A stretch of DNA of 64,000 nucleotides from Escherichia phage EF202P1, in sequence record OP172796.1, one strand, 5' to 3'. Shown one piece after another: positions 445-55,049 of the stretch. The position numbers and the translations under genes are program-made. Below the pieces are notes generated by a model that saw only the letters and a program-made list of their open reading frames with translations, was not told where the DNA came from and searched no databases. Numbering within the stretch: the first letter of the stretch is position 1; each line of letters opens with the position of its first letter.

Positions 445-842
445 GGCTCTTAAACAGACACAGCTTTGTAGTAAAGCGTAAAGTCTCTGAAGACGGTTAT
501 TATAATGATGATGGTGATTGGGTAGCTTCACAAGATATTGTAGAGGTTAACTGCAAAGGTAATATCCAGCCATACATTAAAGGTTCTGTAAAGAACGGTA
601 CACAGATTGCTTTACCGGAAGGTATTAGGCTAACCGATACAAGAATCCTATATACCACATATAAACTTAGAACTTCAGATGATGTAGAGTGGAATGAGTC
701 TGATATTGTTATGATTGATGGTCATGAGTATGAAGTATTTATGACTATGGATTGGTCACAGCAATTAGCCCATACGTCCCATTATGAATATATCATTATT
801 AGAAGGGATAAAATGAATGCAGTTAGAAACAGCAGAACTTGA
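441..842 (+). CDS. hypothetical structural-module protein
   Basis: ATGA stop/start overlap with upstream ORF, same strand as tail genes. Confidence 0.35.
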   Translation: MRLLNRHSFVVKRKVSEDGYYNDDGDWVASQDIVEVNCKGNIQPYIKGSVKNGTQIALPEGIRLTDTRILYTTYKLRTSDDVEWNESDIVMIDGHEYEVFMTMDWSQQLAHTSHYEYIIIRRDKMNAVRNSRT

Positions 843-1416
843 AAAAGGTCTAGTTAGAACCTTAGTGGATGTTATTGGTCACAGACTAGCTCGTGATAAG
901 AATAATAGACCAAATGTAATTAGAGCTTACCCTTCTGATAACTCAAATGACAAAGGTTTAAAACCTGACCAGCCATTTATTACCGTATATTGTCAAGATG
1001 CTGCAACACCTTATGGTTGGGTTCTTGATAAGTTTGTTGAGGATGATGTAGTTTGCTACAGAATTGCTTTTCAGATTCCAGTATTAATTACGGTGAATGG
1101 TAAAGGTGCTCACAGTATTATGCTTGAGCTTAAACAACGATTAGAGATGAGTTCAGTCAGAGATTTAATCCTTGAAGAAACAGGAGCTACAGTATTAGAC
1201 ACTGGAGCAATCCCTAATGATTACACTTATCTCAATACAGATTTCGAAAATTCTGCACCTCTTGTTGTAACTCTTGTAAAAAACTCAGTCCTGAAAGATG
1301 AACGTGGAAGTATTATCGAGCGTGTCATTGTTGATGGTGAGTTAGTTTATGAAGAAGGACAAGAGCCACCAGAATATATTATCCATCTAGATGTAGACTC
1401 CAAAGGGGTAAAATAA
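817..1416 (+). CDS. hypothetical protein (possible tail completion/neck protein)
   Basis: Position immediately 5' of tail sheath gene; stop abuts sheath start codon. Confidence 0.3.
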   Translation: MQLETAELEKGLVRTLVDVIGHRLARDKNNRPNVIRAYPSDNSNDKGLKPDQPFITVYCQDAATPYGWVLDKFVEDDVVCYRIAFQIPVLITVNGKGAHSIMLELKQRLEMSSVRDLILEETGATVLDTGAIPNDYTYLNTDFENSAPLVVTLVKNSVLKDERGSIIERVIVDGELVYEEGQEPPEYIIHLDVDSKGVK

Positions 1417-3945: not shown

Positions 3946-11964
<8,019 letters not shown>

Positions 11965-11966
11965 TA

Positions 11967-13154
11967 ATGGCAGTAGGTGAAATTCAAATTAGTGCCTTGC
12001 CTCAAGCAGCCTTACCAATTGACCTTAGTGATATCTTCCATCTTAAGCAGGGTATTGAGGATAAGAGGTGTACTCTTGAGCAATTACTTGCTCCACACTC
12101 AAGCCTAAAAAATAACCCTCATGGTGTTACTAAAACACAAATTGGTTTAGATAATGTTATTAATGCTCTTCAGTTAGTCGCTGCAAATAACTTATCAGAT
12201 ATTGTTAATGTAGCTGAGGCAAGAGCAAATCTACAGATTATGTCTTCAGAAGAGGTTAATAACCTTGTTCAGCAACATATCAAGGACAAGAGTAACCCAC
12301 ACAATACAACTAAGGCACAGGTTGGTTTAAGTAATGTTCAGAACTGGACAACATCTAACCTGTATAATGAAGATGCAGATAAGTATGCTACAGCAAGAGC
12401 AGTAAATAATTTGTACAAGGCTGTTCAGGCTTCTTATCCAGTAGGTACTATCCATCTTTCTATGAACTCTGCAAACCCTTCTACATACTTAATTTGTGGA
12501 GGTACTTGGGAGTTGGTTTCAAAAGGTAGGGCATTGGTTGGCTATGACTCTGATACAAGGCCAGCAGGTTCTGTATTTGGTGCTTCGACTGTCACTTTGT
12601 CAGTTAATAACATGCCTCAACACTCACACTCTGTATCTCTTAGTGGTGGTGGTCACACTCATAATGCAACTGTTTCAATTTCAGCTTTTGACTATGGAAC
12701 AAAGACTACCAACTCTTTTGACTATGGAACAAAGACTACTAACACAACTGGTAACCACAATCACGTTGGTAGTGGGTCAACAAGTGCTGCTGGTGCTCAC
12801 AACCACAGATTGACCTATGAAGCGGGTGGTGGCCTATCGGAGAGACCTGCAATGGTTTGGTCTACAAGAAATGACCAATCATGGTACTCAGCAGATGCTG
12901 TCTGTGAAGTCGCTGGTTCGCACACCCACTCTTTTAGCGTTACCACTAACACAACTGGTAACCATAATCATACGGTGGGTATTGGTGCTCATAGCCATAC
13001 AGTTGGTATTGGTTCACACACACACAATGGTACTGTGGCAGTTTCTTCTTCTGAGCATACACATAGTGGAAACACTAATAGTGTTGGTGGTGGACAAGCT
13101 TTCAACATTGAGCAGCCATCATTCGTGCTGTATGTATGGCAGAGAACAGCTTAA
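11967..13154 (+). CDS. tail fibre protein (short), HxH-rich receptor-binding tip
   Basis: Two NPHxxTKxQxGLxNV fibre repeats; C-terminus with many GxHxH motifs (HTHNATV, GNHNH, GAHSHTVGIGSHTHNG) ending ...WQRTA. Confidence 0.75.
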   Translation: MAVGEIQISALPQAALPIDLSDIFHLKQGIEDKRCTLEQLLAPHSSLKNNPHGVTKTQIGLDNVINALQLVAANNLSDIVNVAEARANLQIMSSEEVNNLVQQHIKDKSNPHNTTKAQVGLSNVQNWTTSNLYNEDADKYATARAVNNLYKAVQASYPVGTIHLSMNSANPSTYLICGGTWELVSKGRALVGYDSDTRPAGSVFGASTVTLSVNNMPQHSHSVSLSGGGHTHNATVSISAFDYGTKTTNSFDYGTKTTNTTGNHNHVGSGSTSAAGAHNHRLTYEAGGGLSERPAMVWSTRNDQSWYSADAVCEVAGSHTHSFSVTTNTTGNHNHTVGIGAHSHTVGIGSHTHNGTVAVSSSEHTHSGNTNSVGGGQAFNIEQPSFVLYVWQRTA

Positions 13155-13164
13155 TTTCTTTACA

Positions 13165-13186
13165 GGGGCTTTATAGCCCCTTTTAA
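13165..13186 (+). terminator. intrinsic terminator between tail-fibre genes
   Basis: GGGGCT-TTAT-AGCCCC then TTTT. Confidence 0.6.
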
Positions 13187-13200
13187 GAGGAAAATTTATA

Positions 13201-15585
13201 ATGGCAGATTACAAATTGAGTGAATTAAACTCAATCGATACAATCCGTTCAGATGACCTTCTTCATGTCAGAGTTAAAAAGAGACCTGAAATGCTGGGTG
13301 ATGAAGACCGTCGAATGACCTATCAAGATTTCTTAGCATCTTTTAAGCTTGAGAGATTTGTTCAGATTATTGGTAGTACCATGACGGGTGATTTAGGTAT
13401 TGTTAAGTTACTTTATGGTGGTAAGACAGTATTTGACCCTACAGGCTCTTCTGAGATTAATATTGGGGATGTTTTAAAGACTTTTAAAATTAACGCAAAC
13501 GGTCTTAAGCTAACTATTGCAGATGCTTCAAGGTCGGCAACTGTTTACCATACCCTGAATAAGCCAAGTCCTAATGAGCTTGGGATGAGAACTAATGAAG
13601 AGAATGATGCAAGATACTCAAGATTAGCTGCAAATAACATCTTTACCTTCCAACAGGTTATTCAAGCAAATGGCGAAGCTATTAGACTAAAAAATTCTTC
13701 TGAGAACTCACCGTTGTATATTAGAGGTCAGGACAGCACTGGTGCTAATAGGTGGTATGTAGGTAATGGTTCAGGGAATGATGATGTTATTATCCACAAC
13801 TACAAGACAGGTTGTGAAGTGAATCTGTCTAGTGTTGCTGCTATCAGTAAAACACTTAGAATCACTGGTCAAGTCCAACCTTCTGACTTCTCTAACTTAG
13901 ATGCTAGATACTTCACACAGACAGTTGCTAATCAGAGATTTGCACAGTTAGCTGCTAATAACAATTTCACTGGCACTAACACGTTTAGCAGAAACCTACT
14001 TATTATTAGTGACAGTGCTGCTTTAAGGTTGAAAAATACTGTAGCAAATGCTGCACTATACGTTAAAGCCGAAGCTAATGATGGTTCTGGTAAGTGGTAT
14101 GTAGGAAATGGTGATAATACACCTGCTGTATTCATCAGCAACTATGTGTATGGTTCTTATCTTAGACTTGACAATGGTCATGTCGCAGTAAACAAGGACT
14201 TCAGAATCACTGGTCAAGTTCAACCTTCAGATTGGGCTAACATCGACTCTAGATACATCCCAGCAGCAACTTTGAGTAACCTACCTAAACTTAATGTTGC
14301 TAACACATTTGTGAATGTGCAAACTATTGTATCAAATAATGAAGGCGTAGTATTAAGAAACTTAACACAGGGACAGCCACAATATATCCGTGGTGTTGAT
14401 ACCCAGAATGTATCTAGGTGGTGGGTAGGTGTGGGTGGCACAAATTCTACTGATGTAGCATTAAACAACAGCTACTCTGGGACTCAAATTACTCTTATGT
14501 CCTCAGCGATTAAGGCTAATAAGAATCTAACCATTACTGGTCAAGTACAACCTTCTGATTGGTCTAACTTAGATGCTAGATATTTTGTTAAAACTCAGTT
14601 ATTAAATCAATCCTTAATGACTGTCTCTGTAGATAACCTTGAAAACCCTTCAGCATTTAATCTTGGATATTCAGGTTTTGTCAGAAACAACAGTGTGACT
14701 AGTGGTCTGAAAGAGTTGGCAATTCATGTTGCTCACTCTAGTAAGTCTGCTGCACATGCAAGGGGTATCTCTTTTGTATACGGTTCAAACGGTTTGGCAA
14801 CATTCACCTATGCCTATGACAAAGACGGCAGATATGCTGGGGAAGCACAGCTTTACACAACTGATTTTAAACCAACCCCTTCAGATATTGGTGCATACAC
14901 TAAAGCTGAAACTGACCAGAAGATTGCACAGGCAGTAAGTGACTCTACAGACCTTAACAAAATCTATCCAGTTGGTATTGTAACGTGGTTTAACAGTAAT
15001 GTTGACCCTAATACAGCACTTCCTGGTCTAACTTGGACGTACCTGAACAATGGTGTTGGTAGAACTATCAGAATCGCAGCAGCAAACGGTTCAGATGTTG
15101 CTACAACTGGTGGTTCAGACTCTGTAACTTTAGCTGTTGGTAACTTACCATCACACACTCACAGTTTCTCTGCTACCACTTCATCTTTTGATTATGGTAC
15201 GAAGGGCACTAATAGTACTGGTGGTCATACTCACTCTGTAAGTGGTACAACAAGTGCTGCTGGTAACCACGCTCACCACTTAGGTTTGTTATTAGTTAAT
15301 GGTGGCGATGCTTTGTACGGTTATACAACAGTTGGTAACAATAAGACAAGGACTCTTGACTGGCTTGACAGAACTGATAACAAGTTCCCTAACACTAACA
15401 CAACTGGTAACCATACACACACATGGTCTGGTACTACAAGCAACACTGGTGCTCACACCCACTCTGTAGGTATCGGTGCTCACACTCATACAGTTAGTGG
15501 TAACACTGGTGGTACAGGTTCTGGTTCAGCATTTAGTGTTACTAACCAGTTCTACAAGTTAATGGCTTGGGTAAGAACTGCTTAA
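13201..15585 (+). CDS. tail fibre protein (long) with three internal ~110-aa repeats and HxH-rich tip
   Basis: Three repeats ending [10 protein letters not shown](W/F)(S/A)N(L/I)D(A/S)RY; C-terminus paralogous to 11967..13154 (SFDYGTKxTN, TNTTGNHx[17 protein letters not shown], ...WVRTA). Confidence 0.8.
13600..14590 (+). repeat. three tandem ~330-345-nt intragenic repeats in long tail-fibre gene
   Basis: ATCACTGGTCAAGT(C/T)CAACCTTC at about 13861, 14206, 14534. Confidence 0.6.
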
Positions 15586-15664: not shown

Positions 15665-15862
15665 ATGCCTACAATCCTAGCAATTCTTCTAAAAAATCTA
15701 GGTAGCTTCTTCTGGAAACTCATTTTATCCCTTCTAAGTGAATACATGATTGAGAAAGTGTTCTTTAGGCTTGCAAGATACCTTGCGAGTAAAACAGACA
15801 CACCTATTGATGATGAGTTCGTAGATAACTTAGAAAAAGCTTTTAAGGGGGAGAATAAATGA
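15665..15862 (+). CDS. small membrane protein (holin-like candidate)
   Basis: 65 aa, hydrophobic N-terminus, charged C-terminus; follows promoter+hairpin after tail fibre. Confidence 0.3.
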   Translation: MPTILAILLKNLGSFFWKLILSLLSEYMIEKVFFRLARYLASKTDTPIDDEFVDNLEKAFKGENK

Positions 15863-16230
15863 AGTGGCTAGAGGAAGCTTTTAAAAATAATATTGGTGCA
15901 ATTGTAGTTGGTATTTTTAGTGTTATTGGGATGTATACCACCATGCAAGTTTCGGATGGTAAACAAGAAGTGTCTATCACAACAAAGTTACAGCAGTTGG
16001 ATAATTATTCCAAAAGTAATTATTCAGCTATCCGTGATTTACAGTCTGATATGAGGTTGCTTCAGCTAGGGATGGAGAACCAGAAAGTCCAGTTAGAGAA
16101 TGTTAAGGGTGAGAACGCAAAACTTACTAAGACTCTTGATAAATTCTCTGATAGTGTGAACAATCTGGCTCAATCAGTATCAGCCCTCCAAGCTATTACT
16201 GAAAAGAACACAAAGAATACTGAAAAGTAA
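15859..16230 (+). CDS. membrane-anchored coiled-coil protein
   Basis: N-terminal TM segment (IGAIVVGIFSVIGMYTT) plus coiled-coil rest; coupled to upstream ORF. Confidence 0.3.
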   Translation: MKWLEEAFKNNIGAIVVGIFSVIGMYTTMQVSDGKQEVSITTKLQQLDNYSKSNYSAIRDLQSDMRLLQLGMENQKVQLENVKGENAKLTKTLDKFSDSVNNLAQSVSALQAITEKNTKNTEK

Positions 16231-16237
16231 AGTTTAA

Positions 16238-16265
16238 GGCTCCTTTTTACGGGAGCCTTTTTTGT
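16238..16265 (+). terminator. intrinsic terminator at end of + strand structural block
   Basis: GGCTCC-loop-GGAGCC then TTTTTTGTTTT; convergent with thyA. Confidence 0.7.
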
Positions 16266-19366: not shown

Positions 19367-19750
19367 TCAAATACCTGTGCAGCTTCTGTTTTCTAAGAAA
19401 TACTCAACACCATACATAGCTTTTTGCATCAAATCTTCTTTAAACTGAATACGATGATTAAGCATAGCCTGTACATCAATATCATCATGGTGCTTCTCTT
19501 TAATATTTGCAGATTGCAGGAAATACTCTGCAAGAACACGATACTGATAGTCAGTTACCTTGTCAGTCATCTCTGTTAAAGACTCTTCAGAGATTGGTTT
19601 AAGTAACTCACCATTAGCCAAAGCAACACCTTTTACAATCTGGCAAGTGTCTTCTGGAACACCTGATAAGTCCACATTTGGAAGTTCTGTTGCATTGACT
19701 GGTAAATTCATTGCCATAACCATTGCAGCAGCTAATAAAATCTTTTTCAT
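19367..19750 (-). CDS. secreted/periplasmic protein with signal peptide
   Basis: N-terminal MKKILLAAAMVMAMNLPVNA signal-peptide-like segment; first gene of minus-strand operon. Confidence 0.45.
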   Translation of the reverse strand: MKKILLAAAMVMAMNLPVNATELPNVDLSGVPEDTCQIVKGVALANGELLKPISEESLTEMTDKVTDYQYRVLAEYFLQSANIKEKHHDDIDVQAMLNHRIQFKEDLMQKAMYGVEYFLENRSCTGI

Positions 19751-19970
19751 AATGACCTCAAAGTTATATTAAATTTTGTATTACATTGAGTATAAAAATA
19801 AGCTATAACACCTGACTTGTCAACAGATTTTATAGCTTATTTGGCAGATTTTTTATAAGGCTACTGCCATCCTTCCATACCTTACTTTACCGTACCTGAC
19901 AGTACAACACTTCAACTTACCCAACCACATAATACCCCACCTTATTAAAAGACCCTCTTAAAGACCTTTT

Positions 19971-20013
19971 AAAAAGGTAAGTCTCATTTTAATGTAGCTG
20001 AGACTAACTACCC
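19971..20013 (-). terminator. minus-strand hairpin with T-run (repeat unit terminator)
   Basis: On minus strand GGTAGTTAGTCTC-loop-GAGACTTACC then TTTTT. Confidence 0.45.
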
Positions 20014-20239
20014 ATACTTTACCTCGCCTAACCGCACCCGAATCAACCGGACTAGACCAAGCCCCACTGCACATCACCGAACCAAACATTACTTAAAAAC
20101 CCTTTTAAAAGACTCTTAAGTGATGTAATCGAATTTTTATGTAGTTCCGATTAACTACCCTTACCAGACATTACCGTACCTGACCCTACATAACCACTCC
20201 TTACCAAGCTCAACCTCATTAAAAGACCCTGTTTAAAGA

Positions 20240-20268
20240 CCTTTTAAAAAGGAGCCTCCGAAGAGGCT
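20240..20268 (-). terminator. minus-strand intrinsic terminator after cassette gene 20280..20720
   Basis: On minus strand AGCCTC-UUCG-GAGGCT then CCTTTTT. Confidence 0.6.
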
Positions 20269-20279
20269 ACCTAGTCAAC

Positions 20280-20720
20280 TTAGAAAGGCTTTCTACGTTG
20301 CTTGTTAATATTAGCTTTCATAGCAGCTAAGTGGTTTTGCTGTTCAATCAGTCGTGAACGTTCTTGATGACTAAGTGCCATAGTGTTCACATTCTCAATC
20401 GCTTGAGTGGCTTGCTTTAAAGCACGACCAATCTTACCAGACATTTTGCGTTTTGCAATAGTTGCTTGATGCTTAGGTTCAACCACACGATAACCAACAC
20501 CCATTGAAGCAACCAGATAAATCTTCTCTTCTTTAAGAAGCTTCTCAATAAACTTCTCAAGTCGGTTTAGACGTGTAAGTGCATAAGCCTTCATTTCATC
20601 TTCGTACTTAACAATGTCACCTTGATAAGTTGGCTTCACAATACCTAAGAAGGTATCCATCTCAGAATGTGATACAGTGTCACCGTAACTAAACTTTGCT
20701 GCTAATGCTTTTGTATTCAT
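20280..20720 (-). CDS. hypothetical protein (isolated cassette gene 2)
   Basis: 146 aa, basic C-terminus; followed on minus strand by UUCG-loop terminator. Confidence 0.45.
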   Translation of the reverse strand: MNTKALAAKFSYGDTVSHSEMDTFLGIVKPTYQGDIVKYEDEMKAYALTRLNRLEKFIEKLLKEEKIYLVASMGVGYRVVEPKHQATIAKRKMSGKIGRALKQATQAIENVNTMALSHQERSRLIEQQNHLAAMKANINKQRRKPF

Positions 20721-20722
20721 AA

Positions 20723-21355
<633 letters not shown>

Positions 21356-21359
21356 GAAC

Positions 21360-21697
21360 CCTCAACAGAAGACTCTTTAGAAACTTGGTAGATTTTTAAT
21401 GTGGCTACTACCATCCACCCATACCATGCCACACCACACCGGACCTTACCTAACCCGACCTTACCATACCTGACCTAACCCTACCATACATTATTAAAAG
21501 ACCCTGTTTAAAGACCTTTTAAAAAGGTAAGTCTCATTTTTATGTAGCTGAGACTAACTACCCACACCAAACCATAGCATACATCGCATTACCGGACAGA
21601 ACCATACTTTACCAAACATCACTTAAAAACCCTCTTAGAAGACTCTTAAGTGATGCTGGTGAGTACCCGTTGGTTTATGCTGCTCAGTATACTCACC
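21360..21697. repeat. second copy of the same intergenic unit family (two to three units)
   Basis: Same boxes and hairpins as 19866..20268, ending in GGTGAGTA/TACTCACC stem. Confidence 0.6.
21521..21563 (-). terminator. minus-strand hairpin with T-run downstream of ligase
   Basis: Same AGTCTC/GAGACT hairpin unit as at 19971..20013. Confidence 0.45.
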
Positions 21698-21719
21698 AAA
21701 TTTTCTATGTCAACAACTT

Positions 21720-22820
21720 TTATTCATAATCTCGTATAACCAGCCCAACAGGGAACTGTAAAGACCCCTTACGAGTCATCTTCTGGAACTGTACCGTTAA
21801 AGGTTTCCCGATAAACTCTTCAGGATGCTCAGCAAGATACTGTTTCTTCTCATGAGTAGTCTTCCATGAGACATCTACAAAGACATTAGGAAGAGTCTCT
21901 ACAACGAACTTGCCATGACCACGTTTATCTGTCTTTACACCAGTCACTTTAAACTCTTCAGTGTGCATCTTCTTGTGCTTAATCAAGAAGTATGAACGGT
22001 GACAACACTCATAGAAGGAGTCTTCAGAGATTGAACGGTACATTGCACCTTCAAACTTAGCTTCAACCCACTTATCATGAGCTTCATCAAACTCTTCCCA
22101 AGAATTTACACGACGAGACTTAACAGGAACAACTTTACAGCTGTCTCTGAAGTCATTCAATGGTGAAGTCTCAATAATATCTCTACGCTCAGGCCACGTC
22201 ATAGTACTGTCACAGATATCGTACCAGTAGAACTGGAGTAGATGTCGGTCTGGATTGTCAGCATTCTTAATCATAGACACAATATCTTCTAAGTCCCAAC
22301 CATGAGCATAAATCTCACCATCAAAGTCTTCGACTTGTGGATGCAATTTAAGCAACAAAAGCAAATCTGGGATTAGTTCTTCTGGGACGTTGTAAATAGT
22401 ATTCTCACGAGAATAAGCCGTGAAGCTAACTAAATCAGCATCTCTTGAAATTCTACAACGAACACCATCAAGTTTTGGTTGAGCATCAGCAGGGAATATC
22501 AAATACTTTGCATGACTAACCTTTGCAGCATCATGAGCAAGCTGCACACCTACCTTCTCAGTATTCTGTGCAGACTCTTTTGTGTAAGCATAACCTTTGC
22601 GGTCAACCTGCTTTTTATACTTTGCAGCAACTTCAAAGAGAGCTTGCTGTTCAGCGTTACGCTCATTCTTTTTACCGATGTTTTTAGGTTCTGCTGTATA
22701 CTCTTCAAACATCATCTTGCCATTTTCTTTACCGTAGGTTGTAATAACTTTGTCACCTACAGCAACACATGACCAGACGTTAAAAGAGCCGTCTTTATTT
22801 TGTTTGTACAGAATTGTCAT
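21720..22820 (-). CDS. ATP-dependent DNA ligase
   Basis: Adenylation motif I KLDGVRC; size about 366 aa from ATG with AGAGG RBS. Confidence 0.8.
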   Translation of the reverse strand: MTILYKQNKDGSFNVWSCVAVGDKVITTYGKENGKMMFEEYTAEPKNIGKKNERNAEQQALFEVAAKYKKQVDRKGYAYTKESAQNTEKVGVQLAHDAAKVSHAKYLIFPADAQPKLDGVRCRISRDADLVSFTAYSRENTIYNVPEELIPDLLLLLKLHPQVEDFDGEIYAHGWDLEDIVSMIKNADNPDRHLLQFYWYDICDSTMTWPERRDIIETSPLNDFRDSCKVVPVKSRRVNSWEEFDEAHDKWVEAKFEGAMYRSISEDSFYECCHRSYFLIKHKKMHTEEFKVTGVKTDKRGHGKFVVETLPNVFVDVSWKTTHEKKQYLAEHPEEFIGKPLTVQFQKMTRKGSLQFPVGLVIRDYE

Positions 22821-23013
22821 TTTTAACCTCTGAGTGATACCAAGTATTGCAAGCATTACATGCGTAAAGTTCTAAGTCATTTTTATCTGGTTTATGAAAA
22901 CAGTTTGCTCCACAGTGGCAACGAAACGGCTTTCCACCAACTGTCAGGATGAAGGATTGAACCTTTCCATCAGGAGTCCGTACAGCATTTTTATGCTTAT
23001 CTTCTTTATTCAT
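22795..23013 (-). CDS. zinc-finger small protein
   Basis: CHCGANC ... CNACN motif. Confidence 0.4.
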   Translation of the reverse strand: MNKEDKHKNAVRTPDGKVQSFILTVGGKPFRCHCGANCFHKPDKNDLELYACNACNTWYHSEVKNDNSVQTK

Positions 23014-23169
23014 TTGTGATATTGCCTTTGTCAGATTTCATATAGGACATGTTACTATGCCTTTTAATAAAATGTACAACGCATTTTGGTGTATCTTTTG
23101 TGTCTTTGATGTGCAATCTATCGAAACTGTGTACTGTGAAGGTTGCATCTGTCATTGTCTGCTTAGATT

Positions 23170-23376
23170 TCATTTTCTCTTACCACCAATCTCTACGTCA
23201 ATGACTTGAACATCACCAGCAACATCAAACTTATGAATGATGCTTTCCACAGTGTAAGTCCAACCCTCGATTCGAACCAACTCACCTTCTCGTGGGACGA
23301 TTGGGTTACGTTGAGCTACGGTTGTAGTGGAGTGAACAACATCATAACAGTAGATATAGTTTACTAGGACTTCCAT
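23170..23376 (-). CDS. hypothetical protein
   Basis: 68 aa from ATG with GAGG RBS, chosen to avoid overlap with lipoprotein gene. Confidence 0.3.
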   Translation of the reverse strand: MEVLVNYIYCYDVVHSTTTVAQRNPIVPREGELVRIEGWTYTVESIIHKFDVAGDVQVIDVEIGGKRK

Positions 23377-23386
23377 CTTGAAAACC

Positions 23387-23623
23387 TCACTCAATAACAG
23401 TAGTGTGTGATTGACCATTTTTGCCATAGCTATAAGATGTTGTTGTTTGAGAGTTTGGACATCTGACAACAACAATATCTCTGCTTATGGCATCACCATG
23501 TAACTTATAGACTTTGCAATCTTGCATCTCTGGTGGGAGGCTATAAGAAGCATTTTTGTCCTCGTAAGAGGGATTACAGCCAGATAGAAGGATAACACTA
23601 AGCACAATTACTGCTTTCCACAT
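23387..23623 (-). CDS. lipoprotein (candidate superinfection-exclusion/receptor-masking protein)
   Basis: MWKAVIVLSVILLSGC signal peptide with lipobox LSGC; AGGAGA RBS. Confidence 0.5.
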   Translation of the reverse strand: MWKAVIVLSVILLSGCNPSYEDKNASYSLPPEMQDCKVYKLHGDAISRDIVVVRCPNSQTTTSYSYGKNGQSHTTVIE

Positions 23624-23636
23624 AATACTTCTCCTA

Positions 23637-23795
23637 TTACTGTTCACGATGTTCTACTTCTCTGTACGTTCGTCGATAGTTTATAATAAGCTGTGCTAAC
23701 TCGTTGCTTTTAACATCTGAACGTAGAAGTTGCCAATCAAAACCTTTACCGACTCTTCCATACAAACTAAAGAATTTTACTTTGCGTTTCATTTT
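23637..23795 (-). CDS. small basic protein (not in ORF track, <60 aa)
   Basis: 52-aa ORF MKRKVKFFSLYGRVGKG... starting 12 nt after stop of 23810..24022 with GGAGA RBS; hand-derived coordinates. Confidence 0.3.
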   Translation of the reverse strand, partial: KMKRKVKFFSLYGRVGKGFDWQLLRSDVKSNELAQLIINYRRTYREVEHREQ

Positions 23796-24060
23796 GGTAT
23801 CTCCAATACTCAGATGTCAATGCTAATACGTTCACCCTTAAGGACTCCTGTACGGTCCCTTGCAATCTTACCGTCAACAATAAGGATATGTGCAGACCTT
23901 AAAGATTCGCCATTAAAAGCTTTTACGAACTTACAAGGCATTACCACAATAGACATCTCCTGAATCAACTCTGGAGTATAGCAATTGTCGTGAAGTTGCT
24001 GAATAACGTCTGCAAGTGTCATTTTTGATGTCTCCAATATTCAATGTCAATAAGTTCTTG
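23790..24060 (-). repeat. tandem duplication junctions of small-gene module
   Basis: CATTTTGGTATCTCCAATACTCAGATGTCAATGC (about 23793) vs CATTTTTGATGTCTCCAATATTCAATGTCAATAAG (about 24020). Confidence 0.5.
23810..24022 (-). CDS. small protein, paralogue B of duplicated module
   Basis: MTLADVIQQLHDNCY...GKIARDRTGVLKGERISI aligns with 24225..24443. Confidence 0.45.
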   Translation of the reverse strand: MTLADVIQQLHDNCYTPELIQEMSIVVMPCKFVKAFNGESLRSAHILIVDGKIARDRTGVLKGERISIDI

Positions 24061-24228
24061 TGCAATGCTTTTCAGATTACCTTTCAAGAAAACCTTCTCA
24101 GAACCTGAAAGAGATGAATTGTCAATTAACCTGTTCATTCTCTCAAACAACTTCTGCTTACGGTTCTTGATAGTTTCCTTTGAAGCACCTTTCATCATCG
24201 CTGCATGGGTTCTTCCACGGTGGCTCAT
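24019..24228 (-). CDS. small basic protein
   Basis: 69 aa, Lys/Arg-rich; ATGA overlaps with both neighbours. Confidence 0.35.
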   Translation of the reverse strand: MSHRGRTHAAMMKGASKETIKNRKQKLFERMNRLIDNSSLSGSEKVFLKGNLKSIAQELIDIEYWRHQK

Positions 24229-24443
24229 AGTAAACTCTCAATATTTACACGCTCACCTTTTAAGTAGCCTGTCTTATCTTTTGCGATTTTACCTCCAGCA
24301 ATAAAGATATCTACTCTACGTAGAACTTCAGGGTTTACCTTCAAATTCCTACAGCTACTGCAAAGAACAATAAACATCCCTTCAATCTCTTTTTGAGAAT
24401 AACCTGCACATTGCAACTGAACTTCAATCTCTGAAAGTGTCAT
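24225..24443 (-). CDS. small protein, paralogue A of duplicated module
   Basis: MTLSEIEVQLQCAGY...GKIAKDKTGYLKGERVNI aligns with 23810..24022. Confidence 0.45.
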   Translation of the reverse strand: MTLSEIEVQLQCAGYSQKEIEGMFIVLCSSCRNLKVNPEVLRRVDIFIAGGKIAKDKTGYLKGERVNIESLL

Positions 24444-24504
24444 GTGACCTCCTATACAAGATATAGTATAAGGTACTCTTCCATGAGCACCTTGTCAATA
24501 CTAA

Positions 24505-27204
24505 TTAGTGTACTTCAAGCCAGCTTTTGCCAACCTTACCAGTGCCTGTAACAAGCGTTTCTTTCTTAAGACCTAAGTTTTTAGAAGCTTGTCCATAATA
24601 CCAGTCAGTAACTGCTTTCACATCTGCCGTCATACTCTCTGGACATTCCCAACTCGTCTCGTCGTGATATGCGCAGAGCAAACGAGCACCAATAGCTGGT
24701 TGACGACCATTCAACTTCATCAAACCTTCGTCAATCATACGACGACAAGCAAGGTTAATCGCCTCATTTTGAATCTGAGCCTCTGAACCCATCAAAAGAT
24801 AGTTCAACAGCTTGTGTGGAGATTTACACCACAACCAAGCTCCAGCAACCTTTACAAAACCCCCTTTAGAGATTGCAGCGGTCTTACCAAACACCTCTTC
24901 AAGTGCCTTCTTAGTCGCTTTGTAGTCAGCTTCCAAGTCATCTAGCAGCTTCTTAATTTTAGGCAAACGAATAAAGTAAGTCTGTTTAGTCAGTGCACCT
25001 TCCTGAGTAGTTGCAGCTTTAATCGTCTTAGCAAACTTCTCGTCACCTGCACCGAACAGTAGTGCATAGATACCATTCTTAGCTTTCTTACGACCCTTGC
25101 TAATCTCATGAAGAAGGTTCTCATCCTGAGTAGCTCGACAAGTCAAGATATCCTGCTCATCATTCAAGCTAAAGTAAATACTGTTCAGTGTGTGTGCATC
25201 AGTCCCTGAATAGACAACGTAAAGGTCGTTCTCAGAGTCATAGCGAAGGTACTTATCAATCTCTGGGTTGAGGTACTCATCAAAGTGTTTGCAGTAATAG
25301 CGTCCATCTTCTTGACGAATAAACTCAATCTCTTCTTTACCTTGCGTTACCGCTTTGGTGAAGTCTTTGTCACCCATAAAGTTACAAAGAAGAACTAGCT
25401 GGGCTGAGTTCATGTCTACAGATACAACGTTAGTACCTTCTTCACAAATCCACACTGCCCTCATTGGTTCCCCATAGACAGCAGCACCAGACGGTACGTT
25501 TACAATACCATATTGTGTCATACGTCCAGTTGAAGTACCAAACACCATTGCACCAGCACTAAGGCGACCATCAGGACGAATCTGGTTCAACCAACCTTTT
25601 TCATCATCCTTTGAGTTCTCAATAGTTCTGCGTCGGTGCATCAAAGTATAGTATTTCGCAATCTTCTGTCCAAGCTCACCTTCAATCGTATCATAAGATG
25701 ATTCAGTAAGTTTTGGTGAAGTACGGATTAAACAAGGTTCAAGCAAATCTGTGTACTTCTTCACAGACCAGTTATGTTCAATGTACTGGACACCTTCATG
25801 TTCAACATAACTCAAACCGCACCGTTCAACCATCTCCTGCCATTTAGGATGCTTTGTAATCATCTTTTTGTTGTCTTTGAAGCGACAAACCTTAACAGGA
25901 CGACCATCAGAGTCTTTCTTATAGTTCCAGTCATCTGGAATCCAACCAACTGATTTCAAGTAGTCTTTAACAACTGCTACCTGAGTCATACGAGAAACTT
26001 CGAACTCAATTGGTGTATATGGTGCATCAATCAAACCTGTGTAGCGACTTGACTCAAGTTCAAAGTGGTTAACAATATGACTGTTATAGTACTTCACAGT
26101 TTTAACTGTTTTTACTGGCTTCCAGTCTTTGCATTTCTTACCAATCTTTGCGTTCAACTCATTGCAAATTGCACGAGCATCCTTCATTGCTACAAAACCT
26201 TCTTTGTACTCTTCACCAGTTACAGAGTTGGTTGGTGTATAGCAATTCCGCTTTTCAATGTTAAAAATCTTTGTAGTTGGCTTACCAAATGGCTTGATTT
26301 CGTATGTCTGCATCTCACCGTTACGTACCTGCTGACGATACTTCGTCTTAGGGTACTTGGTAATTCTCTTCAGTCCATCTGCATGACCGAATGCTTCAAC
26401 ATACTCATTCCAAGCTTTTGCAAATTCTTCTCCAGTGACTTTACCTTTAGTCTTAATAGTTGGAGGAAGATGTGGTTCAACTTCTGAAGCAAGCTCGTTA
26501 GTCAACTTGTCAAGTTCCTTTACATGAAACTCCATAAGCTCTTTATCAGCTTTCCAACCATTGATAGCTTGTTGACTCATCCAGAAAGATGTTTCTTTAG
26601 CTCGCATGTAGGTTTCATAGGTGTCTATGCCACACTTCTTTAGCTTCAGATATTCATTATCCAATGCACGTTTAGTTTTGGCGTTAATACGGATATCTTC
26701 CACAACACGAGTGAAGATTTCTGCATTCCACACACCCCAATGTTCAATCTCTGGTTTACGGACACCAACACGAGCACCCCATGCTGCCAAGCCATGAGCA
26801 CCTTTATAGCCTTTTGGAGTTGGTCTATCCATCCACTGAACACGAGACTGGATAAGAGAATCCTGAAAGAAATTACTCCACGGCTTACACTTTGGATTAT
26901 CAAAGTTCCACAAATCAGGTGCAATGTGATTGAAAACCCACCAGTCATACCCTAAACCATTATGGATGCAAAGTCGTTTTGCCTTTAACGCAAACTCAAT
27001 ACCTTCACGCAAACCACCCTTAATGTACTTGGTATACTTGTGACCGAGGATAGGCTCATCTGTAAAGACCCATACAGGTGGCTCTTCATCGTCAGATTTA
27101 TAGTCTGCGAAAGCCATTACGTGCACTTTAGTGAACTCAAGGAGTAAACCATCAGTTTCTGTATCACCAACTAAATGTAAGTTTTTAAAATCTACGTTTT
27201 CCAT
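24505..27204 (-). CDS. DNA polymerase, family A, with 3'-5' exonuclease domain
   Basis: Exo motif GDTETDGL; Pol A motifs (DMNSAQLVLL, KKAKNGIYALLFGAG, YHDE); start at ATG with GGAGGGAG RBS. Confidence 0.9.
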   Translation of the reverse strand: MENVDFKNLHLVGDTETDGLLLEFTKVHVMAFADYKSDDEEPPVWVFTDEPILGHKYTKYIKGGLREGIEFALKAKRLCIHNGLGYDWWVFNHIAPDLWNFDNPKCKPWSNFFQDSLIQSRVQWMDRPTPKGYKGAHGLAAWGARVGVRKPEIEHWGVWNAEIFTRVVEDIRINAKTKRALDNEYLKLKKCGIDTYETYMRAKETSFWMSQQAINGWKADKELMEFHVKELDKLTNELASEVEPHLPPTIKTKGKVTGEEFAKAWNEYVEAFGHADGLKRITKYPKTKYRQQVRNGEMQTYEIKPFGKPTTKIFNIEKRNCYTPTNSVTGEEYKEGFVAMKDARAICNELNAKIGKKCKDWKPVKTVKTVKYYNSHIVNHFELESSRYTGLIDAPYTPIEFEVSRMTQVAVVKDYLKSVGWIPDDWNYKKDSDGRPVKVCRFKDNKKMITKHPKWQEMVERCGLSYVEHEGVQYIEHNWSVKKYTDLLEPCLIRTSPKLTESSYDTIEGELGQKIAKYYTLMHRRRTIENSKDDEKGWLNQIRPDGRLSAGAMVFGTSTGRMTQYGIVNVPSGAAVYGEPMRAVWICEEGTNVVSVDMNSAQLVLLCNFMGDKDFTKAVTQGKEEIEFIRQEDGRYYCKHFDEYLNPEIDKYLRYDSENDLYVVYSGTDAHTLNSIYFSLNDEQDILTCRATQDENLLHEISKGRKKAKNGIYALLFGAGDEKFAKTIKAATTQEGALTKQTYFIRLPKIKKLLDDLEADYKATKKALEEVFGKTAAISKGGFVKVAGAWLWCKSPHKLLNYLLMGSEAQIQNEAINLACRRMIDEGLMKLNGRQPAIGARLLCAYHDETSWECPESMTADVKAVTDWYYGQASKNLGLKKETLVTGTGKVGKSWLEVH

Positions 27205-27264
27205 TTTTACTCCCTCTAAAATCATTAACCTCATACATTACTGCAAAAAATTATAAAAAGCAAG

Positions 27265-27293
27265 TTGACAATGTACTTGACAAGGTGTTAATC
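27265..27293 (+). promoter_or_regulatory. candidate promoter in divergent AT-rich region (two TTGACA boxes)
   Basis: TTGACA at about 27265 and 27277; weak -10. Confidence 0.35.
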
Positions 27294-27461
27294 TTTGCGA
27301 AGTGGGTTTTTACTTAAAAGGTTACTTAACAGTTTAACTATACAGATACTTTAAAACTCTTAAAAGATTATTTAATAGCTTTTAAAAAGCTTTAAAGTAT
27401 AACGTATAGAATACGTTAAGATAAAAGATTAAAACTTAATAGTTACTTAAAAGAGGCTTAC

Positions 27462-52788: not shown

Positions 52789-53337
52789 ATGAAGAAGTTG
52801 ATTCTAGGTTTGTGCTTAATGTTTACAGCACACTTATCTTATGCAGTTGACTGCCCAGAGCTATCAATTAGTCAAAAAGTAAACATGTTAAAAGCTTACC
52901 AGTATGGTGAGAATAATATGGGTAAAGGATGGGGCATCACTCTAGCTGCTATAGCCTTACAAGAGTCAGAGTTAGGTCTGAATATGGAGAATAAAAAGAC
53001 CCATGACTATGGTATCTTCCAGAATCACTTGAAGACTGTTGTAAAGCGTAACAAAATCAGTCCTAATGTGGCTAAAAAGAAACTCTTAAAAGACTTCGAC
53101 TATGCTGCAAAGGAAACACACAAAGAGCTTGAGTTTTGGACGAAGGTACATGGTCACCCAAAGTCAAAGAAGACTTTACAAAAAGTTTTAGCATCATATA
53201 ATGCTGGGTATTCGTACAAAATTCCTAAAGCTAAGAAATACTCTCAAGATGTCTACAACAATATGAAAGTTATTGCTCAATGTGAATTTGCAACAAACAT
53301 TTCTAAGGTAAATCATGAAAAAATTAAGAAAGTCTGA
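52789..53337 (+). CDS. lytic transglycosylase / lysozyme-like protein with signal peptide (candidate endolysin)
   Basis: Signal peptide MKKLILGLCLMFTAHLSYA; SLT-like catalytic region ALQESELG ... DYGIFQ. Confidence 0.5.
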   Translation: MKKLILGLCLMFTAHLSYAVDCPELSISQKVNMLKAYQYGENNMGKGWGITLAAIALQESELGLNMENKKTHDYGIFQNHLKTVVKRNKISPNVAKKKLLKDFDYAAKETHKELEFWTKVHGHPKSKKTLQKVLASYNAGYSYKIPKAKKYSQDVYNNMKVIAQCEFATNISKVNHEKIKKV

Positions 53338-54538: not shown

Positions 54539-54886
54539 ATGACATTTAAAGAGTTCTGCCAAGCTACTTTCATAATTGTTTTCTTAGTTGGAGCAGGTGT
54601 CTGGGGAGGATACTCTTACAGAGACTACCAAGTTGCTGAAGCTGAGCTAAATAATGAGAAATTAATAAGTGTTGCCAAAGATGCTTATCAGGAAGGTTTA
54701 GCCACACTCAGCACCAATTACAAAAATGATTTGAAAGATGTGCTTGCTAAGAATAAGCATACAAAAGAGGTACTAACATATGAAAAAACTAAGCCAGAGT
54801 TTTATAATGTTTGTGTTACTGATAATTATGTCAGGGTGTTCAACGAACAAAGTGAACAGTACATTCAAAAACTCCCAAGTAAGTGA
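54539..54886 (+). CDS. candidate i-spanin (Rz-like)
   Basis: N-terminal TM segment then coiled-coil-like periplasmic part; lipoprotein ORF embedded at 3' end in another frame. Confidence 0.4.
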   Translation: MTFKEFCQATFIIVFLVGAGVWGGYSYRDYQVAEAELNNEKLISVAKDAYQEGLATLSTNYKNDLKDVLAKNKHTKEVLTYEKTKPEFYNVCVTDNYVRVFNEQSEQYIQKLPSK

Positions 54887-55049
54887 GAGTGATAAGTACA
54901 CTCAAGAAGAGTCGAGATTCACTATCAAAGGTAATACCGGCAGTGATGTGGCAGCAGCCCTTGAGTTTTATCGTGATGGTTTTTACCAGTGCACAATAAA
55001 AGCTAATAACCTTATTGATATGATTTTATTAGGGAACAAACAGCAATGA
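54780..55049 (+). CDS. candidate o-spanin lipoprotein (Rz1-like)
   Basis: Signal peptide with lipobox IMSGC; starts inside 54539..54886 in a different frame. Confidence 0.4.
   Translation: MKKLSQSFIMFVLLIIMSGCSTNKVNSTFKNSQVSESDKYTQEESRFTIKGNTGSDVAAALEFYRDGFYQCTIKANNLIDMILLGNKQQ

What the first reader, a model, noticed from the sequence alone, without database searches (positions are those of the whole stretch)
23387..23623. Phage-encoded lipoprotein in the early region (candidate superinfection exclusion or receptor masking)
The 78-aa ORF starts MWKAVIVLSVILLSGC-, a lipoprotein signal peptide with lipobox and AGGAGA RBS, and sits among early genes near the DNA polymerase. Small phage lipoproteins of this kind (T5 Llp, T4 Imm/Sp-like functions) block the phage's own receptor or DNA-injection route. 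A second exported early protein (19367..19750, signal peptide) points the same way.
Basis: partly seen in the sequence, partly recalled or inferred. Interest (0 to 1): 0.45.

Follow-up and report, generated by a model that had tools for sequence, protein, structure and literature searches.

The report
Early phage lipoprotein, uncharacterised widespread family
A Felix O1-like coliphage encodes a real, strongly conserved small lipoprotein in its DNA-replication operon; it belongs to a large family found in many unrelated virulent phages, has no known function, and is not related to the known receptor-blocking phage lipoproteins it resembles in size and design.

Summary
The ORF is real. It lies on the minus strand at 23387..23623, encodes 78 aa, and has an AGGAGA ribosome-binding site 6 nt upstream. 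Its N-terminus is a textbook lipoprotein signal (MWKAVIVLSVILLSG|C).

The window is a Felixounavirus genome. The gene sits in the ligase-to-DNA-polymerase operon, about 8 kb from the tail-fibre genes and on the opposite strand.

It belongs to a large uncharacterised family (phrog_902; 649 50%-identity clusters). The family has a conserved lipobox, three invariant Cys, and the motifs LPxELxDC and VVRCPNSxTTT..GK. Members occur as stand-alone genes among early or replication genes in Ounavirinae, Vequintavirinae, T5-like and N4-like Vibrio phages, T4-like Aeromonas phages and jumbo phages. The family is almost absent from bacterial genomes.

The mature domain is under strong purifying selection (dN/dS about 0.07).

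It is not the o-spanin, because a true Rz/Rz1 pair lies at 54539..55049. It is not homologous to T5 Llp, T1 Cor or Rtp45; only the signal peptides align. No solved structure shares its fold.

The design matches those exclusion lipoproteins, but Felixounaviruses use the LPS core as receptor. The multi-lineage spread also argues against masking the phage's own receptor. The most likely role is a periplasmic binder of a conserved envelope component. The function is untested.

The parts
23387..23623 (-). Lipoprotein precursor gene, 78 aa plus stop
   Evidence: phrog_902 match at E 3.3e-17. Orthologs are annotated as CDS in relatives. dN/dS is 0.12 overall.
23630..23635 (-). Shine-Dalgarno AGGAGA, 6-nt spacer to the ATG
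   Evidence: Read directly from the sequence.
23579..23623 (-). Signal peptide, residues 1-15 (n-region MWK, h-region AVIVLSVILL)
   Evidence: Selection is relaxed here (dN/dS 0.4-0.55), as is typical of signal peptides.
23576..23587 (-). Lipobox L13-S14-G15-C16; Cys16 is the predicted lipidated N-terminus of the mature protein, and +2 is Asn, so outer-membrane sorting is predicted
   Evidence: The lipobox Cys is present in 100% of 237 aligned family members. 236 of 251 sequences match a strict lipobox pattern and the rest carry close variants.
23390..23578 (-). Mature chain C16-E78 (63 aa): a roughly 12-residue linker followed by a small beta-sheet domain
   Evidence: AF2 model with mean pLDDT 74 and strands at 37-42, 50-55, 58-66 and 69-75. 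dN/dS is 0.06-0.07.
23501..23539 (-). Conserved motif 1, L29-L41 (LPPEMQDCKVYKL; family consensus LPxELxDCKxYxL), including invariant Cys36 (23516..23518)
   Evidence: Conservation: P30 97%, L33 82%, D35 87%, C36 100%. dN/dS 0.06.
23477..23500 (-). Variable loop H42-D49, the most length- and sequence-variable part of the domain
   Evidence: Up to 61% gaps per column. dN/dS 0.24, which is still purifying.
23438..23470 (-). Conserved motif 2, V52-T62 (VVRCPNSQTTT), including invariant Cys55 (23459..23461); Cys36-Cys55 is inferred to form a disulfide at the base of a beta-hairpin
   Evidence: Conservation: R54 89%, C55 100%, P56 96%, N57 85%, S58 89%, T60 92%. dN/dS 0.05. The strand pairing in the AF2 model places the two Cys side by side. 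The disulfide itself is inferred, not shown.
20253..27460 (-). Presumed transcription unit: DNA polymerase, eight tightly packed small ORFs including the lipoprotein, DNA ligase, three more ORFs, then a terminator-like hairpin at 20268..20253
   Evidence: Gene packing with overlaps or gaps of about 10 nt. The only convincing terminator on this strand is at 20268..20253. Promoter scans were no better than shuffled sequence, so the operon and its timing are inferred.

Best explanation
The gene encodes a genuine bacterial-type lipoprotein made by the phage from its replication-gene operon.

Inferred pathway, from the signal sequence and established Sec/Lgt/LspA/Lnt/Lol biology:
- The precursor is exported and cleaved before Cys16.
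- Cys16 is triacylated.
- Because residue +2 is Asn and not Asp, the protein is delivered to the periplasmic leaflet of the outer membrane.
- There, a roughly 12-residue tether carries a roughly 50-residue beta-sheet domain locked by a Cys36-Cys55 disulfide.

Shown here:
- It belongs to a large, phage-restricted, functionally uncharacterised family (phrog_902).
- The family travels as a single stand-alone accessory gene among the early or replication genes of many unrelated virulent phages of Gammaproteobacteria.
- It is under strong purifying selection.

Inferred mechanism: it acts stoichiometrically as a periplasmic binder of a conserved host envelope component, not of this phage's own receptor, which is LPS core. 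This would make the infected cell's envelope refractory to further attack, through exclusion at a step after receptor binding or protection against damage from outside. In design it works like T5 Llp, T1 Cor and Rtp45, but it is not a member of those families.
For: - Real gene with a canonical lipoprotein signal.
- The lipobox Cys and two further Cys are invariant in 237 family sequences.
- LPAM_1 matches 19 of 88 members.
- dN/dS is 0.06-0.07 in the mature part against 0.40-0.55 in the signal peptide, across 21 Felixounavirus orthologs.
- Family size: 649 50%-identity clusters at E<=1e-3.
- tblastn hits in 596 phage records covering Felixounavirus, jumbo coliphages and Erwinia phages, Certrevirus, T5-like and N4-like Vibrio phages, Acinetobacter ME3 and Aeromonas T4-likes.
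- Context is always small early or replication-region ORFs, with no conserved neighbour.
- Only 1 confirmed locus in 185,579 bacterial species genomes for the core motif.
- Same size and architecture as Llp, Cor and Rtp45.
- Those proteins act from the periplasmic face on outer-membrane proteins (PMC12685063).
- Felixounavirus receptor is the LPS core (PMC13196588).
- Complete modification of abundant surface glycans during lytic infection is judged futile (PMC11990801).
Against: - There is no experimental datum for any member, and every database name is 'hypothetical' or 'lipoprotein'.
- No target was identified.
- The AF2 model is only moderate (pLDDT 74, C-terminus about 53).
- The conserved motifs could be purely structural, with the variable loop conferring lineage-specific targets. 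Receptor-specific action in phages with protein receptors is therefore not excluded.
- In the T5-like Vibrio phage, the family member was the only lipoprotein found in the 68 kb scanned, and none lay next to the putative RBP.
- Expression timing is inferred from position only; promoter scans were uninformative.
- About 13% of members carry Asp at +2, so localisation may not be uniform across the family.
- Frameshifted alleles exist (P0012, P0013), and at least 19 Salmonella Ounavirinae records lack the gene. It is therefore dispensable.
Confidence: 0.4

Rival explanations
1. Receptor-specific superinfection exclusion. The lipoprotein would inactivate the phage's own terminal receptor, as Llp and Cor do for FhuA and Rtp45 does for LptD, blocking adsorption to infected cells and to debris.
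For: Size, lipid anchor and single disulfide are the same as in Llp, Cor and Rtp45. The gene sits in an early-type position. The variable loop 42-49 could carry specificity. In a T5-like Vibrio phage it is the only lipoprotein found in the regions scanned.
Against: Felixounavirus receptor is the LPS core, not a protein. The gene is not adjacent to the tail-fibre or RBP genes, unlike all three known cases. There is no homology to any of them. The family is shared by phages of different hosts and receptor types. No diversifying selection was detected: loop dN/dS is 0.24 and the core is 0.05.
Confidence: 0.12
2. Envelope management without exclusion. The lipoprotein would modulate a host periplasmic or outer-membrane process during infection. 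Candidates include peptidoglycan hydrolases or lysozymes, Tol-Pal, BAM or Lpt machinery, envelope-stress sensing and vesiculation. The benefit would be a stabilised or reprogrammed infected cell, or adjusted lysis timing.
For: Strong purifying selection and invariant motifs across lineages suggest one conserved host partner. It is a stand-alone accessory gene in hyperplastic early regions, for example next to nrdC.11 and nadV in Aeh1. It is dispensable in some isolates.
Confidence: 0.3
3. It is the phage's o-spanin (Rz1-like) or another lysis component. One homolog, in Vibrio phage PhiImVa-1, is annotated this way.
For: It is a small outer-membrane lipoprotein. There is a weak PHROG hit to an Rz-like spanin (phrog_6073, E 0.003), but it covers only residues 3-21, which is the signal peptide. 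The homolog carries the annotation 'putative spanin'.
Against: A canonical overlapped i-spanin/o-spanin pair lies at 54539..54886 and 54780..55049 (phrog_1152, E 9e-42). No adjacent or embedding membrane-protein partner exists here; the neighbours are soluble 51-aa and 68-aa ORFs. There is no C-terminal transmembrane segment, so it is not a u-spanin. The gene lies in the replication operon, not a lysis cassette.
Confidence: 0.02
4. Non-functional or chance ORF.
For: It is short and is annotated only as hypothetical. Some alleles are frameshifted.
Against: dN/dS is 0.07 in the mature part. There are hundreds of homolog clusters with invariant Cys and motifs. It has an RBS and tight operon packing.
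Confidence: 0.02

Closest known systems
T5 Llp (lytic conversion lipoprotein; PDB 8A60)
   Same: It has a 77-aa precursor against 78 aa here. It carries a lipoprotein signal and has a mature chain of about 60 aa with one Cys pair. It is made early by a virulent phage and sits on the inner leaflet of the outer membrane.
   Different: No sequence or profile similarity beyond the signal peptide, and no fold match. llp sits divergently next to the RBP gene oad and targets the phage's protein receptor FhuA. The gene here is in the replication operon of an LPS-core-binding myovirus, and its family spans many lineages.
Cor (T1, phi80, N15)
   Same: It is a 75-aa lipoprotein precursor with two Cys in the mature part, and it is an exclusion factor.
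   Different: Only the signal peptide aligns. cor lies in the tail-fibre/RBP locus. It acts on FhuA. No PHROG 'Cor' hit was obtained for the query.
Rtp45 (phage Rtp; LptDE-binding exclusion lipoprotein, PMC12685063)
   Same: It is a 76-aa lipoprotein precursor. It combines an N-terminal tether, one disulfide and a long beta-hairpin, which is the same building plan as predicted here.
   Different: Only the signal peptide aligns. rtp45 is adjacent to the RBP gene rtp44. Its target, LptD, is that phage's receptor.
T4 Sp (Spackle) and Imm
   Same: Both are early-expressed envelope proteins of a virulent myovirus that block a post-adsorption step: tail lysozyme for Sp, and DNA entry at the inner membrane for Imm (own knowledge). 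This is the kind of outcome proposed here.
   Different: Neither is a lipoprotein, and no sequence similarity was detected in the PHROG or PDB searches. Sp is helical (own knowledge), whereas this domain is predicted to be all-beta.
o-spanins (Rz1 family)
   Same: Small phage outer-membrane lipoproteins.
   Different: o-spanins need an i-spanin partner gene and a lysis-cassette context. The phage's true pair is elsewhere, at 54539..55049.

Membership tests
Bacterial lipoprotein precursors (PROSITE PS51257-type signal) | Positively charged n-region, uncharged hydrophobic h-region, lipobox [LVI][ASTVI][GAS]C with the Cys at position 15-35 | tested here: met
   K3; AVIVLSVILL; L-S-G-C16. The lipobox is conserved across the family. 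LPAM_1 hits in 19 of 88 members.
Bacterial lipoprotein precursors (PROSITE PS51257-type signal) | Actual lipidation and LspA cleavage; outer-membrane localisation | not testable with these tools
   Needs globomycin or palmitate labelling and membrane fractionation. Outer-membrane sorting is predicted only from Asn at +2.
phrog_902 / 'LPxELxDC...VVRCPNSxTTT..GK' phage lipoprotein family | Significant profile match over the full length | tested here: met
   phrog_902 E 3.3e-17, residues 1-76. 649 clusters were retrieved with the family profile.
phrog_902 / 'LPxELxDC...VVRCPNSxTTT..GK' phage lipoprotein family | Three invariant Cys and both motifs | tested here: met
   C16, C36 and C55 are at 100%; P30 97%, R54 89%, P56 96%, K68 92%. 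The query carries all of them.
T5 Llp family | Sequence or profile homology of the mature domain | tested here: not met
   hhalign aligns residues 1-19 only. hmmsearch against PDB 8a60_B gives E 6.3, residues 1-18 only.
T5 Llp family | Gene adjacent to the receptor-binding protein gene | tested here: not met
   llp lies next to oad in T5. Here the tail fibres are at 11967..15585 on the + strand, about 7.8 kb away.
Cor family | Sequence or profile homology of the mature domain | tested here: not met
   hhalign aligns residues 1-21 only. No Cor PHROG appeared among the hits.
Rtp45-type LptD-binding exclusion lipoproteins | Sequence or profile homology; gene adjacent to the RBP | tested here: not met
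   hhalign aligns the signal peptide only. rtp45 abuts rtp44 and rtp43, and there is no such linkage here.
Functional class: superinfection-exclusion lipoproteins | Expression blocks adsorption or infection by the cognate phage | not testable with these tools
   Requires adsorption and efficiency-of-plating assays.
o-spanin (Rz1-like) | Partner i-spanin gene embedding, overlapping or adjacent; lysis-cassette context | tested here: not met
   The neighbours are soluble small ORFs. The real pair is at 54539..54886 and 54780..55049.
Pfam PF16225 (DUF4884), the precomputed label on all homologs | hmmscan match at or near the gathering threshold | tested here: not met
   No hit for the query at E<=10. 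Only 1 of 88 family members matched, at E 0.091. The label is spurious.

The most novel reading that the evidence does not exclude
The family is a pan-lineage phage 'envelope effector'. In this reading, a disulfide-locked beta-hairpin lipoprotein docks from the periplasm onto a universally conserved outer-membrane machine of Gammaproteobacteria, such as LptDE, BAM or Tol-Pal. That would give receptor-independent, broad superinfection exclusion or envelope takeover. It would be a mechanism distinct from the receptor-specific Llp, Cor and Rtp45 proteins, acquired horizontally by at least seven virulent phage lineages.
Probability: 0.3. Interest if true: 0.7.

Novelty: new variant of a known kind. 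Interest (0 to 1): 0.45.

Why it matters
Small phage lipoproteins that act on outer-membrane proteins from the periplasmic side have revealed how FhuA and LptDE can be allosterically shut, and they have suggested peptidomimetic inhibitors. This family has the same building plan. Unlike the known cases, it is not tied to a receptor-binding gene, is strongly conserved, and has been passed among many unrelated virulent phages of enterics, Vibrio, Aeromonas and Acinetobacter. If it binds one conserved envelope target, it would define a receptor-independent exclusion or takeover strategy and point to a druggable periplasmic surface. It would also matter for phage-cocktail design, because a cell infected by one phage could become refractory to others. 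If it proves to be an ordinary lineage-specific exclusion factor, the practical gain is a correct annotation for hundreds of 'hypothetical' or mis-labelled ('putative spanin', DUF4884) genes.

Tried and rejected
- **Pfam, NCBIfam and PADLOC scans of the query and homologs:** nothing beyond lipobox-type noise.
- **Precomputed PF16225/DUF4884 label:** checked and rejected.
- **PDB sequence searches, single sequence and profile:** only signal-peptide matches.
- **AF2 model searched against structures:**
  - Foldseek-PDB gave no match.
  - BFVD returned only family members.
  - The afdb50 library was unavailable.
- **Direct profile comparisons with T5 Llp, Rtp45 and T1 Cor:** signal peptide only.
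- **o-spanin hypothesis:** rejected after finding the true spanin pair.
- **Search for a conserved neighbour gene across four phage lineages:** none found.
- **Search for diversifying selection in sub-regions:** none found; the maximum dN/dS in the mature part is 0.24.
- **Bacterial-genome scan:** one locus, in Hylemonella gracilis, with unclear context. Only 1 of 7 neighbouring ORFs hit a PHROG. The first attempt, with the broad alignment, failed for lack of a conserved stretch.
- **Test for a second, RBP-linked lipoprotein in a T5-like Vibrio phage that carries the family:** none in the 68 kb scanned, so the test was uninformative.
- **Promoter and terminator scan:** promoter matches were no more frequent than in shuffled sequence.
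- **Literature searches:** no functional study of this family or of Felixounavirus lipoproteins was found. One search was wasted on unrelated hits.

Full report
**Observation.** The ORF reported at 23387..23623 is on the minus strand. ATG is at 23623..23621 and the TGA stop at 23389..23387. It encodes the 78-aa protein MWKAVIVLSVILLSGCNPSY...TTVIE.

AGGAGA lies 6 nt upstream of the ATG and directly after the stop codon of the preceding gene. The N-terminus has a Lys in the n-region, a 10-residue uncharged hydrophobic core, and the lipobox L-S-G-C with Cys at position 16. This is the canonical lipoprotein signal.

I scanned every ORF and every alternative start in all six frames of the window for the same kind of signal. 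Only two loci came back: this gene, and the lipoprotein at 54780..55049.

**Where it sits.** The window is a Felixounavirus (Felix O1-like myovirus) genome. It is about 95% identical over this region to Escherichia phage vB_EcoM_Shy, where the gene is Shy_0092, 'hypothetical protein'. The identical protein is public as WAX15067.1 of Escherichia phage EF202P1.

The tail module occupies the plus strand up to 15585. It comprises the sheath, tape measure, baseplate, and tail fibres at 11967..13154 and 13201..15585.

From 16267 onward the minus strand carries, in order:
- thymidylate synthase and DHFR
- an HTH regulator
- the 127-aa exported protein (19367..19750)
- DNA ligase (21720..22856)
- eight tightly packed small ORFs, including the lipoprotein
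- DNA polymerase (24505..27234)

The only convincing terminator on that strand lies at 20268..20253. The lipoprotein is therefore probably co-transcribed with polymerase and ligase. This, and the 'early/middle' timing, are inferred from position. The promoter scan was no better than shuffled sequence.

**The family.** The query matches phrog_902 (unknown function, E 3.3e-17, full length). A profile of close homologs, searched against 1.84 billion cluster representatives, found 649 clusters at E<=1e-3 and 100 at E<=1e-10.

The sequences are 75-130 aa long and share the following features:
- a lipobox
- a tether of about 12-15 residues
- the motif Y-x-L-P-x-E-L-x-D-C-K-x-Y-x-L
- a variable loop
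- the motif V-V-R-C-P-N-S-x-T-T-T, followed by G-K

Three Cys are invariant in 237 aligned sequences: the lipid Cys, Cys36 and Cys55. About a quarter of members add a C-terminal V-(V/I)-D-G-(V/E)-x-Y extension, sometimes repeated. About 13% add a second Cys pair (CGKxC).

The AF2 model built with an 88-sequence alignment has mean pLDDT 74, around 85 in the core and around 53 at the C-terminus. It shows a small antiparallel beta-sheet. Cys36 and Cys55 flank the base of one hairpin, which fits a disulfide. The disulfide is inferred, not shown.

**Distribution.** tblastn against 50,697 phage records hit 596 records. Together with BFVD and annotated contexts, the family is found in:
- Ounavirinae
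- Vequintavirinae (Certrevirus)
- T5-like 114-kb Vibrio phages, where it sits among helicase, ligase and origin-binding genes
- an N4-like Vibrio phage, where it is mis-annotated 'putative spanin'
- T4-like Aeromonas phages (Aeh1, next to nrdC.11 and nadV; phiAS5)
- Acinetobacter ME3
- jumbo coliphages (PBECO4, G17)
- Erwinia jumbo phages
- a Yersinia phage

The neighbouring genes are not conserved between lineages. The gene is therefore a stand-alone module.

A scan of one genome for each of 185,579 bacterial species used the core pattern VVRCPNSxT[TS], which about 40% of family members carry. It confirmed a single locus, in Hylemonella gracilis. The family is essentially restricted to virulent phages.

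Within Ounavirinae the gene is common but not universal. At least 195 of about 258 records carry it at 60% identity or more. At most 57 of 76 Salmonella records have it. Two frameshifted alleles were seen.

**Selection.** Across 21 Felixounavirus orthologs from IMG/VR, pairwise Nei-Gojobori dN/dS is 0.06-0.07 for the mature chain and 0.40-0.47 for the signal peptide. Pooled values by sub-region:

| Region | dN/dS |
|---|---|
| Signal peptide | 0.55 |
| Tether | 0.10 |
| Motif 1 | 0.06 |
| Variable loop | 0.24 |
| Motif 2 | 0.05 |
| C-terminus | 0.17 |

This is a functional, exported protein under purifying selection. There is no sign of the diversifying selection expected from a receptor arms race.

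**What it is not.**

*Not the o-spanin.* A canonical overlapped pair lies at 54539..54886 (phrog_1152 'Rz-like spanin', E 9e-42) and 54780..55049. The gene here has no membrane-protein partner.

*Not a homolog of the three characterised exclusion lipoproteins.* Profile-profile comparison with each of T5 Llp, Rtp45 and T1 Cor aligns only the signal peptide. The profile search of all PDB sequences matches 8A60 (Llp) only over residues 1-18, at E 6.3.

*Not DUF4884.* The precomputed PF16225 tag attached to all homologs is spurious. hmmscan gives no hit for the query and matches only one of 88 members, at E 0.09. PADLOC and NCBIfam gave nothing.

**How it most likely works.** The export and lipidation steps follow from the signal sequence and standard Lgt/LspA/Lnt/Lol biology. 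Asn at +2 predicts outer-membrane sorting. Across the family, Asp at +2 occurs in only about 13% of members.

The product would be a 63-residue protein tethered to the periplasmic face of the outer membrane. This is the same plan as the known exclusion lipoproteins:
- Llp: 77-aa precursor
- Cor: 75-aa precursor
- Rtp45: 76-aa precursor, with an N-terminal tether, one disulfide and a long beta-hairpin that enters LptD (PMC12685063)

All three bind the periplasmic side of an outer-membrane protein and so prevent RBP binding.

Four facts argue that this gene does not simply mask its phage's own receptor:
- Felixounaviruses use the LPS core oligosaccharide (PMC13196588). It is an abundant outer-leaflet glycolipid that cannot be reached from the periplasm. 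Complete modification of surface glycans during a lytic cycle has been judged futile (PMC11990801).
- The known exclusion lipoproteins are encoded next to the RBP gene. This one is about 8 kb away, in the replication operon.
- The same family is used by phages of different hosts and adsorption types.
- Its motifs are nearly invariant and under purifying selection.

The best-supported reading is therefore a stoichiometric periplasmic binder of a conserved envelope component. It would give exclusion at a post-receptor step or protection of the infected envelope.

I put about 0.4 on that compound statement. I put about 0.3 on a non-exclusion envelope-management role, about 0.12 on receptor-specific masking, and about 0.02 each on spanin and non-gene. 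The target and the phenotype are unknown, and no tool here could test them.

**The 'second exported protein'.** ORF 19367..19750 is real and has a plausible SPase I signal. It is an Ounavirinae-restricted core gene, present in all 258 records and at least 95% identical in 206 of them. It belongs to phrog_4332, of unknown function. It has a different distribution from the lipoprotein and provides no evidence for exclusion.

**Novelty and verdict.** The sequences are already in databases as hypothetical proteins, and a PHROG exists. I found no functional study.

Relative to known systems this is a new variant of a known kind. It is a phage outer-membrane lipoprotein with the Llp/Cor/Rtp45 building plan. 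It is unrelated to them in sequence and predicted fold, uncoupled from RBP genes, and spread horizontally across many virulent phage lineages. Interest is moderate (0.45). It rises to about 0.7 if a single conserved envelope target is demonstrated.

Noticed in passing
window 54539..54886 (+) and 54780..55049 (+): Overlapped i-spanin/o-spanin (Rz/Rz1-type) pair. The 115-aa protein has an N-terminal transmembrane segment (phrog_1152, E 9e-42). The out-of-frame 89-aa lipoprotein begins MKKLSQSFIMFVLLIIMSGC....
   Followed up: yes
window 19367..19750 (-): 127-aa protein with an SPase I-type signal peptide (phrog_4332, unknown function). It is restricted to Ounavirinae, present in all 258 matching phage records and extremely conserved. 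It is preceded by a roughly 500-bp non-coding gap (19751..20252) and a promoter-like site at 19823..19795.
   Followed up: partly
window 52789..53337 (+): A third exported protein: 182 aa with signal peptide MKKLILGLCLMFTAHLSYA (phrog_600, unknown function). It lies about 1.2 kb upstream of the spanin pair and may be part of the lysis region.
   Followed up: no
window 15665..15862 (+) and 15859..16230 (+), terminator 16236..16259: Two small membrane proteins sit directly after the tail-fibre genes. One is 65 aa (phrog_402); the other is 123 aa with a transmembrane segment plus coiled coil (phrog_4038). A strong hairpin terminator follows. This is the position where siphophages keep exclusion factors, and the function is unknown.
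   Followed up: partly
window 23810..24037 (-) and 24225..24443 (-): Two paralogous small ORFs (both phrog_4230; 75 and 72 aa) flank the 69-aa ORF 24019..24228, just downstream of the DNA polymerase gene. This looks like a local duplication in a mosaic region: only 96 of 258 related genomes cover at least 80% of the 3-kb stretch.
   Followed up: no
window 6176..6973 (+): 265-aa protein immediately after the tape-measure gene, with an endolysin-like domain (phrog_1517, E 7e-23). It is probably the tail-associated peptidoglycan hydrolase used for penetration.
   Followed up: no
family members P0145, P0156, P0070, P0143, P0161; L015, L024, L026, L027 at about 601..846: Many homologs carry a C-terminal V-(V/I)-D-G-(V/E)-x-Y extension, sometimes in two copies separated by a low-complexity spacer. 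Some Felixounavirus alleles end ...VIDGGY or ...VIDEGY, while the window's allele stops 3 residues earlier. Other members add a small second Cys-pair domain or a helical L-x-x-L-T-x-E-E-R-K-A-L-G-L tail.
   Followed up: partly
L006 5983..6261 (Hylemonella gracilis ATCC 19624, NZ_AEGR01000062.1): This was the only bacterial-genome locus found for the family, in a betaproteobacterium. Its 92-aa lipoprotein carries the motif ...YVVRCPNSSTTT.... The neighbourhood is not clearly prophage: 1 of 7 ORFs hits a PHROG.
   Followed up: partly
all homologs: The precomputed Pfam tag PF16225 (DUF4884) attached to nearly every family member is not reproduced by hmmscan: 1 of 88 members matches, at E 0.09. 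It appears to be an artefact of the lipoprotein signal region.
   Followed up: yes
L005 3989..4273 (Vibrio phage PhiImVa-1, ON042477.1): A family member in an N4-like (Schitoviridae) phage is annotated 'putative spanin'. It sits among small early-type ORFs and tRNA genes with no i-spanin partner, so this is probably a mis-annotation.
   Followed up: partly
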